DNA of 64,000 nucleotides, taken from the NCBI GenBank assembly GCA_963848295.1, contig CAWKDB010000010.1, positions 1,632,001-1,696,000 on the forward strand, written 5' to 3'. Shown piece after piece: positions 47,991 to 53,021 of the stretch. Both the position numbers and the translations under genes were made by a program. The notes beneath the pieces were generated by a model. It was not told where the DNA came from. It saw only the letters and a list, made by a program, of their open reading frames with translations, and ran no database searches. Position 1 is the stretch's first letter; each line of letters starts with the position of its first letter. The stretch is from an uncultured delta proteobacterium (lineage in GTDB: Bacteria; Myxococcota_A; Polyangia; Haliangiales; Haliangiaceae).

Positions 47991-48560
47991 ATGCGGCCGA
48001 TCATGTTTAGCCTAGCTGTCGCGCTCGCAGTCCCGCCTGCCGCGGCGGATACAGCGCTCGCACCCGTCATCGATCTCGGGACGATCCCGGCGCACTGCCG
48101 TCCGCTCGCTTCCGCGCCGAGTAACGCGACCACCCGGGGTCCCCTACTCGATGCGTACATCTCGGTCGCGAGCTGCGAGGTCCTCGTCCGTACCCACGCA
48201 CTCGCGCTCGCGACAACGCCGCAGTCGCGAGATGCGCTCGATCACGCCGTGCGACCATCGCTGGAGCTTCTCGGCTACGTGATCGCGCACGGTGATCTCG
48301 CGCATCAGATCGCGGCCCAGCGCGCGAAAGCCGACACGTATGCCGGCATGGTCGTGTTGTTGGCGACCACGGTGTCGTCACGGTCGTTGCCGCTGACCAA
48401 CGCGATGACCATCGACGAGTACGTCCAGCGATTTCGCTATGCCGACGCACTCACCAGGACGTGGCGGGTTCGCGCAGATGCCGCGAACCGCGAGGCATCG
48501 CGGCTGGCGACTCGGACCGAGCCGCTCGAGCGAGCGCTGCCTCAGCTCACGCGGGGCTAG
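47991..48560 (+). CDS. Hypothetical secreted protein
   Basis: RBS and signal peptide MRPIMFSLAVALAVPPAAA. Confidence 0.7.
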   Translation: MRPIMFSLAVALAVPPAAADTALAPVIDLGTIPAHCRPLASAPSNATTRGPLLDAYISVASCEVLVRTHALALATTPQSRDALDHAVRPSLELLGYVIAHGDLAHQIAAQRAKADTYAGMVVLLATTVSSRSLPLTNAMTIDEYVQRFRYADALTRTWRVRADAANREASRLATRTEPLERALPQLTRG

Positions 48561-48645
48561 CGCGAATGGGAGGATCCTGGCCGGGTACGCGAGCTGCGTC
48601 GCTTGATACACGCGAATCCGTGTGAGTACCGGATCATGTCCTCGG

Positions 48646-49422
48646 TCACATCGACGGCTGGCCGTTGCCAGCTACGCGCTCCGCTCGCTGCGGCATCACG
48701 ACGATACAGATCAGGATGAACGCGGCGAGCACAACCGACGCCGTGTAGCGACTGAGCTCGAGACCCCCGTTTGCGTGCGGCTTGTCGAGCAGGTCGCCAA
48801 CCGTCGCGCCGAGCGGTCGTGTGAGGATGAACGCAGCCCAGAACAAGAAGGTGCGTGACACCTTTGTGAACAAGTATGCGGCGAGGACGAGCAACAAGCC
48901 GCCCGCAAACACCAGCGCGCCGCCTTCATAGCCGAGGCCGAGACCGGTGTCGGAGTCGGCCATCCAATCGCCGAGCGCGGTGCCTAGCGTCTGCGAGAAC
49001 AGGATCGTCGTCCAGTAGAACAGCTCAGCCTTACGTGACGTGATCGACGCGATCGAGACCGAACCGAGCATGCGATGCCACAGCGCGAGCGTTCCGAACA
49101 GCAACGCGATCAGGATCGCCGTGCCGCCGAGGTAACCGATGCCCAACGACCGATCGAGTAGGTCGGCGAGTGTCGTCCCGACGGTCGTGGTGGCGACGAT
49201 CACGACCCAGAACAAGATCGGGTGGAACCGCCTCGCGACGACCTGCGAGCCGACAGCGACCGCAAAGACCGCTGCGAAGATGAGCGTGCCGACGAGGTAG
49301 CCGAGGCCCATCGACATCGTCACCGCATCGCCGCCGGTCTCACCGAGCGTGGTCGCCGCGATCTTGATGACCCAGAACCCGATCGTAGCTTGCGGTACCT
49401 TACCGAGCGCGACTGCGACCAT
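48646..49422 (-). CDS. DUF347/COG4705 membrane protein
   Basis: KVP..T..FW.IKI.ATTLGETGGD; SQTLGTALGD; TRPLGATVGD. Confidence 0.9.
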   Translation of the reverse strand: MVAVALGKVPQATIGFWVIKIAATTLGETGGDAVTMSMGLGYLVGTLIFAAVFAVAVGSQVVARRFHPILFWVVIVATTTVGTTLADLLDRSLGIGYLGGTAILIALLFGTLALWHRMLGSVSIASITSRKAELFYWTTILFSQTLGTALGDWMADSDTGLGLGYEGGALVFAGGLLLVLAAYLFTKVSRTFLFWAAFILTRPLGATVGDLLDKPHANGGLELSRYTASVVLAAFILICIVVMPQRAERVAGNGQPSM

Positions 49423-49691
49423 GCGCGACGCTACTGCGCTTCCATGATCGGATCGAGCGGTACGGCGAAGAGCTCGTGCACCGTCGCGACCCTGTCGCCC
49501 ATACTGAGGAGCTTCTGGCATCGCGGTGATTGCGCGCGGAATCGCGAAGATAGCGCTCGCCATCGCTCGCGGTGCTCCGCCCGGGCGACCGCGCTTGCAC
49601 ACGCCGCAATACCGGAGACCGTCAGTGGCCGTGGTCCTGTCACGCTCGCTAACCAACAATCACGCGGCAGAGTCGTGGTTCTACTTGAATC

Positions 49692-49706
49692 TGAAAACGA
49701 CTTTCA
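49692..49706. promoter_or_regulatory. Fur-box-like inverted repeat
   Basis: TGAAAACGACTTTCA in an AT-rich patch, adjacent to the -10 TACCGT. Confidence 0.5.
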
Positions 49707-49719
49707 ATACCGTTGCCGC

Positions 49720-50100
49720 GTGCGGGGCGTCCATTCTCCTTACGGCGCGCTGATCCGCTTGCGACGCCTGGAACACGGTCGCACGCTCCGCGACGTCGCG
49801 AGCGCGGTCGGGATCTCTCATCAATACCTCGCTGACGTCGAGATCGGCGTAGCTGGGCCGTTGAGGAAGTCCTTCGAACGCGCGCTGCTGCGATGCCTCC
49901 CCACCGTTTCGAAGCGAGAGCTCGACCACGCGCGCGACCTGTCGAAGCCGGTGCTCATCACTCTCAAGAACACGCCCAAGCAGTACATCGAAGTCACCAG
50001 AGCGATCGCGCGCCGGTACGCCCGCCGAGATCTGAGCCGCGAGCAAGTCGAGGAGCTACTTCGCATCCTCCATCAAAGCCATCGGCGGTCGGGACGATGA
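49720..50100 (+). CDS. XRE-family HTH transcriptional regulator
   Basis: YGALIRLRR...TLRDVASAVGISHQYLADVEIG. Confidence 0.85.
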   Translation: MRGVHSPYGALIRLRRLEHGRTLRDVASAVGISHQYLADVEIGVAGPLRKSFERALLRCLPTVSKRELDHARDLSKPVLITLKNTPKQYIEVTRAIARRYARRDLSREQVEELLRILHQSHRRSGR

Positions 50101-50113
50101 CCGCGCGCTATAG

Positions 50114-51181
50114 TTAGCGTGGCGGCGAGACAACTAGCAGGTCCGATCCCTTCGAGTGCGACAAGTAGACCTTGCCCTCGCCTGTCACGACGCCGTTTCG
50201 TACGCCTTCTTCGGTTCTTACCGTCGCTGAGACCGTCAGCGCCCCTTGGCGGTCGAGGCTCGCGATGGTGAGGGTCGCCGCCTTCGCCGCGCCGGCATAG
50301 ATCGTGTGGGTCGCCGACGCGTAGTCGAGATCATCCACGCCGTCGCCCGTGTCGATCGAACCGAGCGTAGCCCCGTCGTGTCCGGCGTCGAGGATCTCGA
50401 CTCGCGTGCTACATGCAACGATAAGGAATCCTTCCGTCTCGGCGAGTCGAAGGCCATGTGGACCTTGCTCGCCGCACGAAGGCTTCCAGGTCGCGACCGT
50501 CTTGTGCGTATCGACGTCGATCGCGAGCGTTAGGTCCTTGTCTTCCAAGTTCGTGTAGAAGCGCCCGCGAGTCGCATCCGGTGCAAAGCCTTCTGGCTCG
50601 CCGTCGAAATCGAGCTTTGCCTTCTGCGCGAGCGTCGCGCCGTCGAGGATCCGGATCGACTTGTCACGCGGGGTGGTCACCCAGACTTCCTTCGTCTTCG
50701 CGACATACGAAATGCCGTCCGGCATCGAGTCGAGCTTGCCGCACGCACCTTTCGCCAGCTTGACTTCGTCGATCGCGCACACAGTGGAGTCGCCGCGATT
50801 CCCGACGTATACCGTGCCGTCGGCGCCGAGCGTGGCGGAGCTCGGTCCGACGGTGCGCTTCTTGCCCCTCCGCTCCACCTCTCGGGTCACGAAGCCTTCG
50901 ATGCGCGACACCTTGCCGGTCGACACATCGACTACGTCGACCGATCCGGTGTTTCCGGCTGGCACCCAGACGGTCTTGGTGCGCGGGTTGTACAGCAGAA
51001 AATCCATCCCGATACCGTCGGGACCGCCGCCGGGCAGTGCGATCTCGCCGGTCGTGTACCCGTTGGCACGTGGCGGCTCCCGGGTCGCCGAGCCCGGCGT
51101 AGGCTTGGCTACCGTTCCGGATGACTTCGATTTGCAGCCGACGAGCAGCAGCGCGATGCTGAACAGAATGTACCTTCGCAT
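50114..51181 (-). CDS. YncE/YVTN-type beta-propeller lipoprotein
   Basis: LLVGC lipobox; MDFLLYNP...GSVDVVD; PDG, PEG and PHG blade motifs. Confidence 0.82.
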   Translation of the reverse strand: MRRYILFSIALLLVGCKSKSSGTVAKPTPGSATREPPRANGYTTGEIALPGGGPDGIGMDFLLYNPRTKTVWVPAGNTGSVDVVDVSTGKVSRIEGFVTREVERRGKKRTVGPSSATLGADGTVYVGNRGDSTVCAIDEVKLAKGACGKLDSMPDGISYVAKTKEVWVTTPRDKSIRILDGATLAQKAKLDFDGEPEGFAPDATRGRFYTNLEDKDLTLAIDVDTHKTVATWKPSCGEQGPHGLRLAETEGFLIVACSTRVEILDAGHDGATLGSIDTGDGVDDLDYASATHTIYAGAAKAATLTIASLDRQGALTVSATVRTEEGVRNGVVTGEGKVYLSHSKGSDLLVVSPPR

Positions 51182-51248
51182 GGGTGGAACGTTGCACGCG
51201 ACAAGTGGCCATACAACCTGTCGCTGACCGAGCCTCCTACATGAAAGA

Positions 51249-51557
51249 TCATTTACCCCGCTCGAACGAAGCCGCACTCGCGTCCGGGGCGATGAAGTCG
51301 CGCAGCGGCGCTCGAATTCGCCCGGTGAAGTAGCACCCGAAGCCAGGATAACGGTCGAGCTGTGGGTGGGCCTCGGCGATCGCGAGTCTGCGATGCGCAC
51401 CATGACCGATCGCGATCGCGGACCGAAACTCGAAATCGGTCTCGTTGACCCAGTCGATGTCGACGAGCGTGACCCACTGATCGGGATAACGGCGACGCAC
51501 CTCATCCCACGTGAGGCGTTCAGCGTTTTCGGTCACGCCAATAGATCCGGTTGACAC
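51249..51557 (-). CDS. Small DUF5678-like protein (start may be 51536)
   Basis: LTWDEVRRRYPDQWV...G.YFTG. Confidence 0.6.
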   Translation of the reverse strand: MSTGSIGVTENAERLTWDEVRRRYPDQWVTLVDIDWVNETDFEFRSAIAIGHGAHRRLAIAEAHPQLDRYPGFGCYFTGRIRAPLRDFIAPDASAASFERGK

Positions 51558-51584
51558 GTAGCGCTCGCTCCCATCGATGTCACT

Positions 51585-52100
51585 TCACGCAGCCCGCTGA
51601 AGAGTGGCTCCGTCGATGCGGTAACCGCGTTTCTTCGACCGTGGACGAGGCTGGTCCGCCGTGAATGCAGGTGCAACGCCTTCGATCGGCGGATTTCGTT
51701 CGTGGAGTCGGAAGAATGCATGCGACCGGATCGCGTAGGCATCCGGTCCCTTCACCGCTTCGGCGCCGTTTTCCCAGCGGTTGACCGTCGCGCGCACGAC
51801 GCCCAAGCGATGCGCGAACTCCTCCTGCGTGTCGCCGACCAACTTGCGGAGGTAACGAACCTCCATTGGAGCGAGCTCTTGGAGTTGGAGGAGGTCGACG
51901 GCGAGCAGAATCGCGATCTGATCCAAGAGCCCGCCGTACATGCTGACGTTCCCGCACTTCTGGCAAACGAGTGCGGGCATGTTGTGGACGACCACCTTCT
52001 TCATGTCGAGAAGCGGTCCGACATCGTGGTCGACATGCTTCTGAACAAGGTTGGCCTTGTGACAGACCCCGCAACGGATCTCGCTGGTTTTGGTTCGCAT
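51585..52100 (-). CDS. MqsA/YgiT-like antitoxin (zinc finger + XRE HTH)
   Basis: CGVC...MPALVCQKCG; TQEEFAHRLGVVRATVNRWENG. Confidence 0.88.
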   Translation of the reverse strand: MRTKTSEIRCGVCHKANLVQKHVDHDVGPLLDMKKVVVHNMPALVCQKCGNVSMYGGLLDQIAILLAVDLLQLQELAPMEVRYLRKLVGDTQEEFAHRLGVVRATVNRWENGAEAVKGPDAYAIRSHAFFRLHERNPPIEGVAPAFTADQPRPRSKKRGYRIDGATLQRAA

Positions 52101-52103
52101 GTC

Positions 52104-52414
52104 CTATCCGTCCATGATCGTGATGAGGATGACCTGCTTGCCGAGATGATCTTTGTAGGCTCGACGCCGACCTTCGCGGTCGTCCCATCGAGCGCGGTTC
52201 CGGTGACTCGCCACGAGGTTCCAGACGCTAGCCGCGGCGCATCGGGGTACGTCGTGCAGGCTGAAGCCGTCGCCACGATCTTCTTGGCATCGAACACGCT
52301 GAAGCTTCGAGCCTTCGCACGTTTCTCGAAATGAGCATCGACGATGTTTCGGCCGCCTAGCATCGCCTCCTGGATCCAGGCGAGGGCCTCGGTAGCGTTT
52401 CTTGGACCAGGCAC
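52104..52414 (-). pseudogene. DUF4258/RelE-like toxin with a 1-nt deletion near 52160
   Basis: HFEKRAKARSFSVFD...WRVTG; restoring one base gives VGVEAYKDHLGKQVILITIMDG* ending 3 nt before the antitoxin ATG. Confidence 0.75.
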
Positions 52415-52417
52415 CGA

Positions 52418-52454
52418 ATGTAACATAGTGTTACATGAGACAGCTGGTTGTCAA
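52418..52454 (-). promoter_or_regulatory. TA promoter with palindromic operator
   Basis: ATGTAACA-TAG-TGTTACAT (52418-36); TTGACA at 52454-52449. Confidence 0.8.
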
Positions 52455-52745
52455 ACCGGTCGAGAGCCCAAGCCGAGCTTGACCGTCCTACGCGTGTGAT
52501 GGCGCGCCTCGGCAGCGTGAACCTTGTGTTGCGCGAGAAACGAGTGGTCGGGCCGTGCGGCGACAAGGACGTTCTCGTCACGTACGCGTGCAGCGCGGGA
52601 GACGCCCTCTCGATCATGATGCGAGACGTCGCCATCGGAAAGAGTGTCCGCGGCTCATCGAGGACGAAGAATTCACGCGCGGGGCTGGTGCCTCGACCTC
52701 TGCGACGCAGACGAAGAACGATGATCGTTGCATCGGCATGGCGGT

Positions 52746-52988
52746 GACCCGTTGGACGCCGACAAGCTGCGCCACGTCCTCCAGGACTTCGACACCCTGT
52801 TCGCGGTGGCCAACCCCACCGAACGCGAGCAGCTTCTGAAGCTCCTCATCAAACGGATCGTGTTCCGCGGCTTCGATGCCGAGGTAACGATGGAGCCTTT
52901 CAGCTCCGTTAACCTTCCCGGTGAAGGTTCGAAATTTCGAGCGTCTTGGCTCCGAAGGAGGGTTTCGAACCCCCGACCCGGCGGTTAA
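52746..52988 (+). pseudogene. C-terminal remnant of a large serine recombinase
   Basis: EREQLLKLLIKRIVF tail motif; frame runs into tRNA antisense; catalytic domain absent. Confidence 0.6.
52926..52971. mobile_element. Symmetric att-like junction
   Basis: GGTTCGAAA (52926-34) / TTTCGAACC (52963-71), centred on the tRNA CCA. Confidence 0.55.
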
Positions 52989-53021
52989 CAGCCGCCTGCT
53001 CTACCACTGAGCTACTTCGGA
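52947..53021 (-). tRNA. tRNA-Asn (GTT)
   Basis: 75-nt cloverleaf TCCGAAG...GGCGG-CTGTTAA-CCGCC...TTCGAAA...CTTCGGA-G-CCA. Confidence 0.97.

What the first reader, a model, noticed from the sequence alone, without database searches (positions are those of the whole stretch)
52746..53021. Serine-recombinase tail crosses a symmetric att site at the tRNA CCA and stops in the anticodon loop
Seen: the frame ...GSKFRASWLRRRVSNPRPGG* takes its last 13 or so codons from the tRNA antisense, with TAA at 52986-88 overlapping the anticodon. GGTTCGAAA outside the tRNA mirrors the T-loop, and the dyad axis (52948/52949) is exactly the CC of CCA. Known: serine integrases exchange at a central dinucleotide between inverted arms, and myxophage Mx8 (a tyrosine integrase) has attP inside int so that integration swaps its C-terminus. 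Inference: a serine integrase that reads the T-loop as a half-site, needs no tRNA duplication, and changes its own C-terminus on integration.
Basis: partly seen in the sequence, partly recalled or inferred. Interest (0 to 1): 0.7.

Follow-up and report, generated by a model that had tools for sequence, protein, structure and literature searches.

The report
Serine integrase remnant with swappable tail
This is the dead last 86 codons of a large serine integrase gene butting onto a tRNA-Asn gene; in relatives the gene runs across its predicted recombination site, so it ends in 11 residues read off the tRNA when inserted and would gain a conserved helix-turn-helix tail, encoded at the element's other end, when excised.

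Summary
Observation confirmed; interpretation needs correcting. The frame 52728-52988 is the C-terminal 86 aa of a large serine recombinase (78% to full-length Resolvase+Recombinase+Zn-ribbon proteins). The rest of the gene and the element's other end were not found in this 85%-complete genome, so it is a relic. Relatives supply the other junction: a 7-bp core (TGGCTCC, 52947-53) is duplicated and the far end encodes an in-frame 72-81-aa HTH tail; natural integrase+HTH proteins exist. The T-loop mirror marks element ends (7 of 8 mirror-bearing loci, of 71 tRNA-Asn loci). The CC-of-CCA axis is likely a hybrid-site artefact: attP symmetry, LSR zinc-domain spacing (11-19 vs 16-24) and far-end cores that lack GG put the crossover at TC 52951-52, in the acceptor stem. 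C-terminal swapping by serine integrases is in print (Dehalococcoides DsiB at ssrA; streptococcal rumA ICEs), and this scan noted it before on other DNA, including an HTH fusion and a tRNA-Asn case. I found no paper on the HTH gain or the T-loop geometry. Against: 9 of 12 integrase|core|HTH junctions are out of frame (at least 3 are hybrids of unrelated elements). The HTH's role is untested.

The parts
52713..52988 (+). 3' remnant of a large serine recombinase gene. Homology starts at 52713 with indels; the open frame is 52728-52988, 86 aa, about residues 438-523 of a full-length protein. The conserved Leu of VTMELF is Pro here.
52884..52946 (+). Element (P) arm, inside int codons -21 to -1. 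Third positions are fixed on A/T in a gene with GC3 of 78-89%, which points to a DNA-level constraint reaching beyond the usual integrase footprint.
52908..52914 (.). GTTAACC, mirror of the anticodon loop. It is not mirrored in P' arms, and a similar word sits 39-40 nt from the core in 10 of 63 flanks without this integrase. Role unknown.
52926..52935 (.). P-arm copy of the T-loop word (predicted zinc-domain motif, positions 17-25 from the inferred crossover)
52947..52953 (+). Core TGGCTCC (tRNA 3' end GGAGCCA), duplicated at the far end of intact relatives. The invariant part is GCTCC.
52951..52952 (+). Inferred crossover dinucleotide TC (tRNA G71-A72)
   Evidence: symmetry score 14.1 vs 5.1 for the CC axis; spacing
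52962..52970 (.). tRNA T-loop as host (B) half-site motif, positions 11-19 from the inferred crossover
52947..53021 (-). tRNA-Asn(GTT), intact, CCA encoded
52986..52988 (+). TAA stop of the integrated-form integrase, complement of tRNA U35-U36-A37
51585..52426 (-). Likely cargo or neighbour: DUF4258-like ORF (52001-52426; lead only, score 0.81) and MqsA/YgiT-finger HTH antitoxin-like ORF (51585-52100). That they belong to the same element is not shown.

Best explanation
The stretch is the decayed tRNA-side end of an element whose large serine integrase likely recombines at a TC dinucleotide inside its own last codons and the tRNA-Asn acceptor stem, so the inserted gene ends in tRNA-antisense filler while the excised circle would encode the same enzyme with a helix-turn-helix domain on a flexible tether. 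Shown: the remnant's identity; the 7-bp core at both ends of related elements; an open 72-81-codon HTH frame starting at the far core; natural integrase+HTH proteins. Inferred: the crossover at 52951-52; the zinc-ribbon domain reading the T-loop word at 11-19 in attB and 16-25 in attP; one-sided recognition of attB, since host flanks carry no motif, which would let new elements stack at the tRNA-side junction. Committed but untested (about 40%): the HTH, present only in the circle's enzyme, binds accessory DNA near attP (the conserved codons -21 to -12) and favours integration into a target with only one good half-site, while the tail-less form serves the integrated state. This copy itself is inert.
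For: Tail homology to 4 full-length LSRs. 7 of the 12 closest hits (43% identity or more) end in a tRNA-Asn-antisense peptide, judged from protein ends; DNA confirms this for the 528-aa ORF of L017. Far-end junctions with core + P' arm: L013:4481, L015:9661, L057:14648, L084:13364, L085:7026, L078, L091. The G014 far-end flank recurs directly at tRNA-Asn in L029, L087, L225, L238 and L249. P vs P' symmetry peaks at TC (14.1; next best 10.3; CC axis 5.1), giving B 11-19 and P' 16-24, the spacing published for LI integrase. The P' frame is HTH (Pfam HTH_24 E 1.7e-6 to 5.6e-5 in 4 of 4 tested), with pN/pS 0.27 in the HTH, 0.52 in codons 11-21, and 4.1 in the att-arm codons, i.e. a DNA constraint there (5 sequences). 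Fused proteins: P0224 (581 aa, 40% to P0001), P0222, P0226, L207 and L203. In 4 of 4 elements with both ends in hand the HTH frame equals the integrase frame, using three different frames (L013 0/0, L086 0/0, L121 2/2, L156 1/1). AlphaFold of P0224: integrase fold complete by residue 482, low-confidence linker 487-532, confident three-helix HTH 539-576. 35 of 77 metagenome HTH loci have the exact core 141-216 nt upstream.
Against: No excised circle was seen; the P'-arm pattern found nothing in viral contigs. 9 of 12 integrase|core|HTH junctions are out of frame (L112, L124, L138, L197-L202). L202, one of L198/L200 and one of L201/L112 pair a P' type with an unrelated integrase, so at least 3 are tandem hybrids; the rest are unclassified. 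The fused proteins were found by a search that selects for them. The 4 concordant elements are only 3 lineages. A Met precedes the HTH in 4 of 5 tails, so a separate small protein is possible. The GG-lacking cores are 2 independent cases and could be later mutations. The P-arm motif is 1 bp further out than canonical, so CT (52950-51) is not excluded. L058 has the T-loop mirror (6 of 7) with no integrase tail or P' partner found. Nothing tests what the HTH binds.
Confidence: 0.8

Rival explanations
1. One reading: the junction is a symmetric site with the crossover at the CC of CCA and no duplication at all.
For: Perfect 9-bp and 7-bp mirrors about 52948/49, kept in 5 integrase-tail loci.
Against: P vs P' symmetry at this axis is 5.1 against 14.1 at TC. 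It would put the motifs at 14-22 and 19-27, matching neither published spacing. Far-end cores TCGCTCC (G052) and AAGCTCC (L116, L173) lack GG. The core is duplicated. 4 host tRNA-Asn ends lack CC (3 of 71, plus L091).
Confidence: 0.07
2. The anatomy is as described, but the far-end HTH is a separate small regulator or excisionase translated from an internal start, and its fusion to the integrase in attP is incidental.
For: A Met at codon 44 in 4 of 5 tails; a low-confidence linker in the model; 9 of 12 junctions out of frame; stand-alone HTHs of similar type inside related islands (L057).
Against: The frame is open from the core in all 5 intact tails, with in-frame length changes only. Codons 11-21 are under moderate protein selection (0.52). 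I saw no clear ribosome-binding site before the Met by eye. Frames agree in 4 of 4 whole elements.
Confidence: 0.2
3. The tail swap has no regulatory role. Both forms have a complete integrase fold, and the HTH only represses the int promoter or is dispensable.
For: The swap falls after the last predicted strand. McMurdie et al. note that DsiB C-termini diverge and raise a trivial reading.
Against: The HTH is conserved next to the same core across many integrase lineages, with pN/pS 0.27.
Confidence: 0.3
4. The dyad is a host tRNA-trailer feature or chance, unrelated to the recombinase.
For: The anticodon mirror occurs at the same spacing in 10 of 63 flanks without this integrase; L058 has both mirrors.
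Against: The T-loop mirror is absent from 63 of 71 loci, and 7 of the 8 carriers have an integrase tail or a P' partner. The same word recurs in P' arms far from any tRNA.
Confidence: 0.03

Closest known systems
Dehalococcoides ssrA genomic islands, serine recombinase DsiB (McMurdie et al. 2011, PMC3146451; passages read)
   Same: About 540-aa CcrB-like serine recombinase whose 3' end overlaps attL and takes its stop codon from the RNA gene or the neighbouring island; tandem arrays at the 3' end of a tRNA-like gene.
   Different: DsiB targets tmRNA, with a 20-bp repeat and insertion placed mid T-loop, and has a partner DsiA. Here the target is tRNA-Asn, the repeat is 5-7 bp, the inferred crossover is in the acceptor stem, and the attP-form tail is a defined HTH domain; the passages I read name no such domain.
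Streptococcal rumA-targeting ICEs with a single serine integrase (Ambroset et al. 2016, PMC4701971; passages read)
   Same: att site inside the serine integrase gene; integration exchanges the C-terminus.
   Different: They target a protein-coding gene and are conjugative. No tRNA antisense and no HTH gain were reported in the passages seen.
Myxophage Mx8 integrase (as summarised in PMC4701971; primary paper not read)
   Same: attP inside int; a 112-residue tail is replaced by 13 residues on integration, with lower activity.
   Different: Mx8 integrase is a tyrosine recombinase with different chemistry and site architecture.
Phage-type large serine integrases (LI/A118; Rutherford et al. 2013, PMC3783163; passages read)
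   Same: Domain order; zinc-domain motif at 16-24 in attP and 11-19 in attB.
   Different: Here only one attB half (the tRNA side) carries the motif, attP overlaps the coding sequence, and no separate directionality factor was identified.

Membership tests
Large serine recombinase (full-length relatives) | Resolvase + Recombinase + zinc-ribbon domains in order | tested here: met
   P0001, P0010, above Pfam cut-offs
Large serine recombinase (this copy) | Catalytic and DNA-binding domains present | tested here: not met
   Only residues 438-523 in G000; no PF07508 match in the 85%-complete genome
Phage-type serine integrase att sites | ZD motif 5 bp closer to the centre in attB than in attP | tested here: met
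   B 11-19, P' 16-24, P 17-25 with a TC centre; by alignment only
Phage-type serine integrase att sites | Both attB half-sites carry the motif | tested here: not met
   63 of 71 host flanks lack the T-loop word
Phage-type serine integrase att sites | Cleavage and exchange at a 2-bp central overlap; RDF-dependent excision | not testable with these tools
   needs biochemistry
DsiB/ssrA islands | int 3' end overlaps att, with the stop codon outside the island | tested here: met
DsiB/ssrA islands | tmRNA target and 20-bp repeat | tested here: not met
   tRNA-Asn, 5-7-bp core
DsiB/ssrA islands | Six-gene integration module with DsiA | not tested
   gene content of intact elements was not annotated
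SCCmec CcrB | NCBIfam equivalog cut-off of 900 bits | tested here: not met
   P0001 scores 127.7 bits
Mx8-type integrase | Tyrosine recombinase | tested here: not met
   serine family domains

The most novel reading that the evidence does not exclude
A widespread class of tRNA-Asn-targeting serine integrases carries its directionality switch in its own gene: circularisation fuses an HTH domain onto the enzyme and makes it integration-competent at a one-sided target read off the universal T-loop, while integration amputates the HTH and leaves an excision-only or weak form, with no separate RDF needed.
Probability: 0.3. Interest if true: 0.72.

Novelty: new variant of a known kind. Interest (0 to 1): 0.42.

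Why it matters
The window copy is an inert relic and matters little on its own. The family offers a clean test of how recombination direction can be set by rewriting the recombinase: both protein forms and all four att sites can be read from natural sequences. An integrase that needs only the T-loop side of a tRNA 3' end and a 5-bp core would target a site native to many bacteria, which is useful for genome engineering without a landing pad. The case also warns that an apparent dyad at an attL/attR site lies about 3 bp off the true crossover.

Tried and rejected
The other junction in G000 was not found by ungapped scan, tblastn of the HTH tails, an nhmmer profile or an HMM search (G000 row); the genome is 85% complete, with 8,000 withheld bases on another contig. 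The island's left edge was not defined: no DNA match of window 30,000-52,700 to the loci then held and only one gene family by tblastx. A fixed internal breakpoint for the orphan tails was rejected, since remnants start at many positions of the gene. Tails ending WLRRRVSN plus non-tRNA sequence (L006-L008) are not attP forms but 24-26-bp displaced tRNA ends; L061 shows such a repeat without the integrase, and I infer a second, T-loop-crossing element. Anticodon read-out by the integrase was not supported: the word lies beyond the footprint, is absent from P' arms and from the G028/G052 P arms, and occurs without the integrase. The idea that the attP tail completes a beta-sheet of the zinc domain was not supported by the model. 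L171, first read as a fusion, is out of frame. A metagenome scan with P0001 found nothing, nor did the viral scan. The promoter scan found 0 sites. Rfam found tRNA only. Paper searches that found nothing on an HTH gain or T-loop geometry. The Mageeney 2020 paper was not held, and Williams 2002 and the Mx8 primary paper were not read.

Full report
Observation. A tRNA-Asn(GTT) lies at 52947-53021 (-). A + frame 52728-52988 ends GSKFRASWLRRRVSNPRPGG*, with 13 codons in tRNA antisense and TAA over the anticodon. A 9-bp mirror of the T-loop is centred on the CC of CCA. Chance is 1.4e-4 at that axis in 200,000 shuffles, and no other of the 52 T-loop-bearing tRNA genes in the genome has a mirror run of 7 or more. 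A second 7-bp mirror matches the anticodon loop.

What the protein is. The 80-aa tail hit 10 proteins among 77 candidates; four are full-length 519-571-aa large serine recombinases (LSRs). In G000 only residues 438-523 match and no Recombinase domain was found (85% complete). Homology begins at 52713 with indels, and a conserved Leu is Pro. Similar orphans of different lengths flank tRNA-Asn in other genomes of the genus (12 of 121 genomes matched, some only through the tRNA part), so this is ordinary erosion from the 5' side. Record titles of relatives name Kofleriaceae and Haliangiales. An intact 528-aa gene ending in the tRNA is in L017. 7 of the 12 closest full-length-search hits end in a tRNA-Asn-antisense peptide, judged from protein ends only.

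The other junction. Relatives carry, 0.7-6.1 kb away, a second copy of the core TGGCTCC followed by a conserved arm (L013, L015, L057, L084, L085, L078, L091). L015:10361 is a natural attP-like junction (integrase tail, core, P' arm). The flank left of the G014 far end stands directly against tRNA-Asn in five other genomes; that flank may itself be the arm of another element. Of 75 tRNA-Asn loci fetched, 4 were dropped for short flanks. Among the 71 left, 8 have the T-loop mirror: 5 with an integrase tail, 2 with a far-end partner, and 1 (L058) with neither.

Where the crossover is. Comparing 12 P arms with 10 P' arms over nine candidate centres, symmetry peaks at TC, window 52951-52 (14.1; next best 10.3; CC axis 5.1). 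With that centre the shared 9-mer lies at 11-19 in the tRNA arm, 16-24 in P' and 17-25 in P. Rutherford et al. give 11-19 for attB and 16-24 for attP (PMC3783163, passages). Far-end cores TCGCTCC (G052) and AAGCTCC (L116, L173; one lineage) lack the GG a CC crossover needs. This is inference from alignments; CT is not excluded, and those cores could be later mutations. The element therefore supplies the last few bases of the tRNA, and only 11 residues are truly host-derived.

What is swapped. The far-end frame stays open for 72-81 codons from the core's W codon and ends in an HTH. In five intact copies pN/pS is 0.27 in the HTH, 0.88 in the linker, 0.52 in codons 11-21 and 4.1 in the att-arm codons; four other Kofleriaceae-type copies (L070, L071, L076, L079) and the L081 junction are truncated or broken. 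Databases hold LSRs with this tail fused: P0224 (581 aa, 40% to P0001), P0222 (named Vulgatibacter incomptus recombinase) and P0226, plus L207 and L203. The model of P0224 has a complete integrase fold to residue 482, a low-confidence linker across the att arms, and a confident HTH. The same core-plus-HTH end occurs at 35 of 77 metagenome HTH loci, and the tail profile matched in 33 of 401 genomes of the phylum (not all hits have the core). Lineages read the core in different frames. In the 4 elements with both ends in hand, integrase and HTH frames agree (0/0, 0/0, 2/2, 1/1; three lineages). Against this, 9 of 12 integrase|core|HTH junctions are out of frame. At least 3 of them join a P' type to an unrelated integrase, as expected in mixed tandem arrays, while both junctions shown to be homologous are in frame; the others are unclassified.

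Mechanism. An incoming circle likely expresses integrase+HTH, which recombines attP with the tRNA 3' end, reading the T-loop with its zinc domain. The tRNA is restored, int now ends in tRNA antisense, and the HTH exon is parked at the far end. Because host flanks carry no motif, the tRNA-side junction likely stays a target, giving tandem arrays. I commit, at about 40%, to the HTH binding accessory DNA near attP and favouring integration. The P arm is conserved at the DNA level out to codon -21 (GTA and ACG in 9 of 9 intact tails, in genes with GC3 of 78-89%; these tails are kin). A separate small HTH protein or a purely repressive role are live rivals.

What is known. Serine recombinases that overlap att and change their C-terminus are published: DsiB at ssrA (PMC3146451, passages) and streptococcal rumA ICEs, whose paper also summarises Mx8 (PMC4701971, passages). 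LSRs are a minority among the tycheposon integrases of Prochlorococcus islands (bioRxiv 2020.12.28.424599, passages). PMC12424338 (whole text) and PMC12884075 (passages) added nothing on this. Seven searches found no account of an HTH gain or of the T-loop as zinc-domain motif. The library lacks most subscription papers, I did not open supplements, and Mageeney 2020 was not held. Earlier notes of this scan describe the same design on other DNA, including an HTH fusion at tRNA-Met and a tRNA-Asn case; these are unchecked AI notes.

Verdict. A real feature, but a dead copy. It is a new variant of a known kind, with the crossover corrected and an HTH tail added to the picture. Interest 0.42.

Noticed in passing
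L045, L046/L066, L223, L228, L244, L248, L250, L225, L058 (flanks of tRNA-Asn in the same genus): A GTTAACC-like word, identical to the tRNA-Asn anticodon loop, sits 39-40 nt from the core in 10 of 63 flanks without the serine integrase tail (12 of 63 within 60 nt; shuffle mean 3.7, maximum 10), with more copies 220-330 nt out. They look like arm-type repeats of another element family; Rfam found nothing but tRNA.
   Followed up: partly
L058:19745-19792: Long degenerate inverted copy of the tRNA's anticodon and T arms at the same axis as the integrase dyad, with no integrase tail or far-end partner found.
   Followed up: partly
window 52418-52436: Palindrome ATGTAAC-N5-GTTACAT at the start of the DUF4258-like/MqsA-like pair; a likely operator.
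   Followed up: no
window 51249-51557 (-): 102-aa ORF with an 81% DNA paralog at G000 C10:398504-398769, about 10 kb from a tRNA-Leu gene.
   Followed up: no
window about 48000-53000: GC falls from about 0.69 to 0.60-0.66 towards the tRNA; the island's left edge was not found.
   Followed up: partly
L057:14648-18342, L084:13364-15783, L091:10001-11909: Small (1.9-3.7 kb) elements with a far-end att arm but no integrase detected; possibly non-autonomous, mobilised in trans.
   Followed up: partly
L197-L203, L207, L112, L121, L138, L156: Many distantly related LSR lineages (some pairs under 36% identity) end at the same core TGGCTCC, which points to tRNA-Asn as a multi-lineage serine-integrase hot spot; the tRNA itself was seen only in L156 among these.
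   Followed up: partly
proteins P0041-P0043, P0046, P0049, P0055, P0059, P0060: More distant LSRs show paired endings (tRNA-antisense-like ...VVAGEGFEPPTLGL versus ...VVAGARNCLNLLL), suggesting the same swap at another tRNA.
   Followed up: no
L014:11902-13305 (-): A second, distant LSR (29% identity to P0001) faces the first one in this contig.
   Followed up: no
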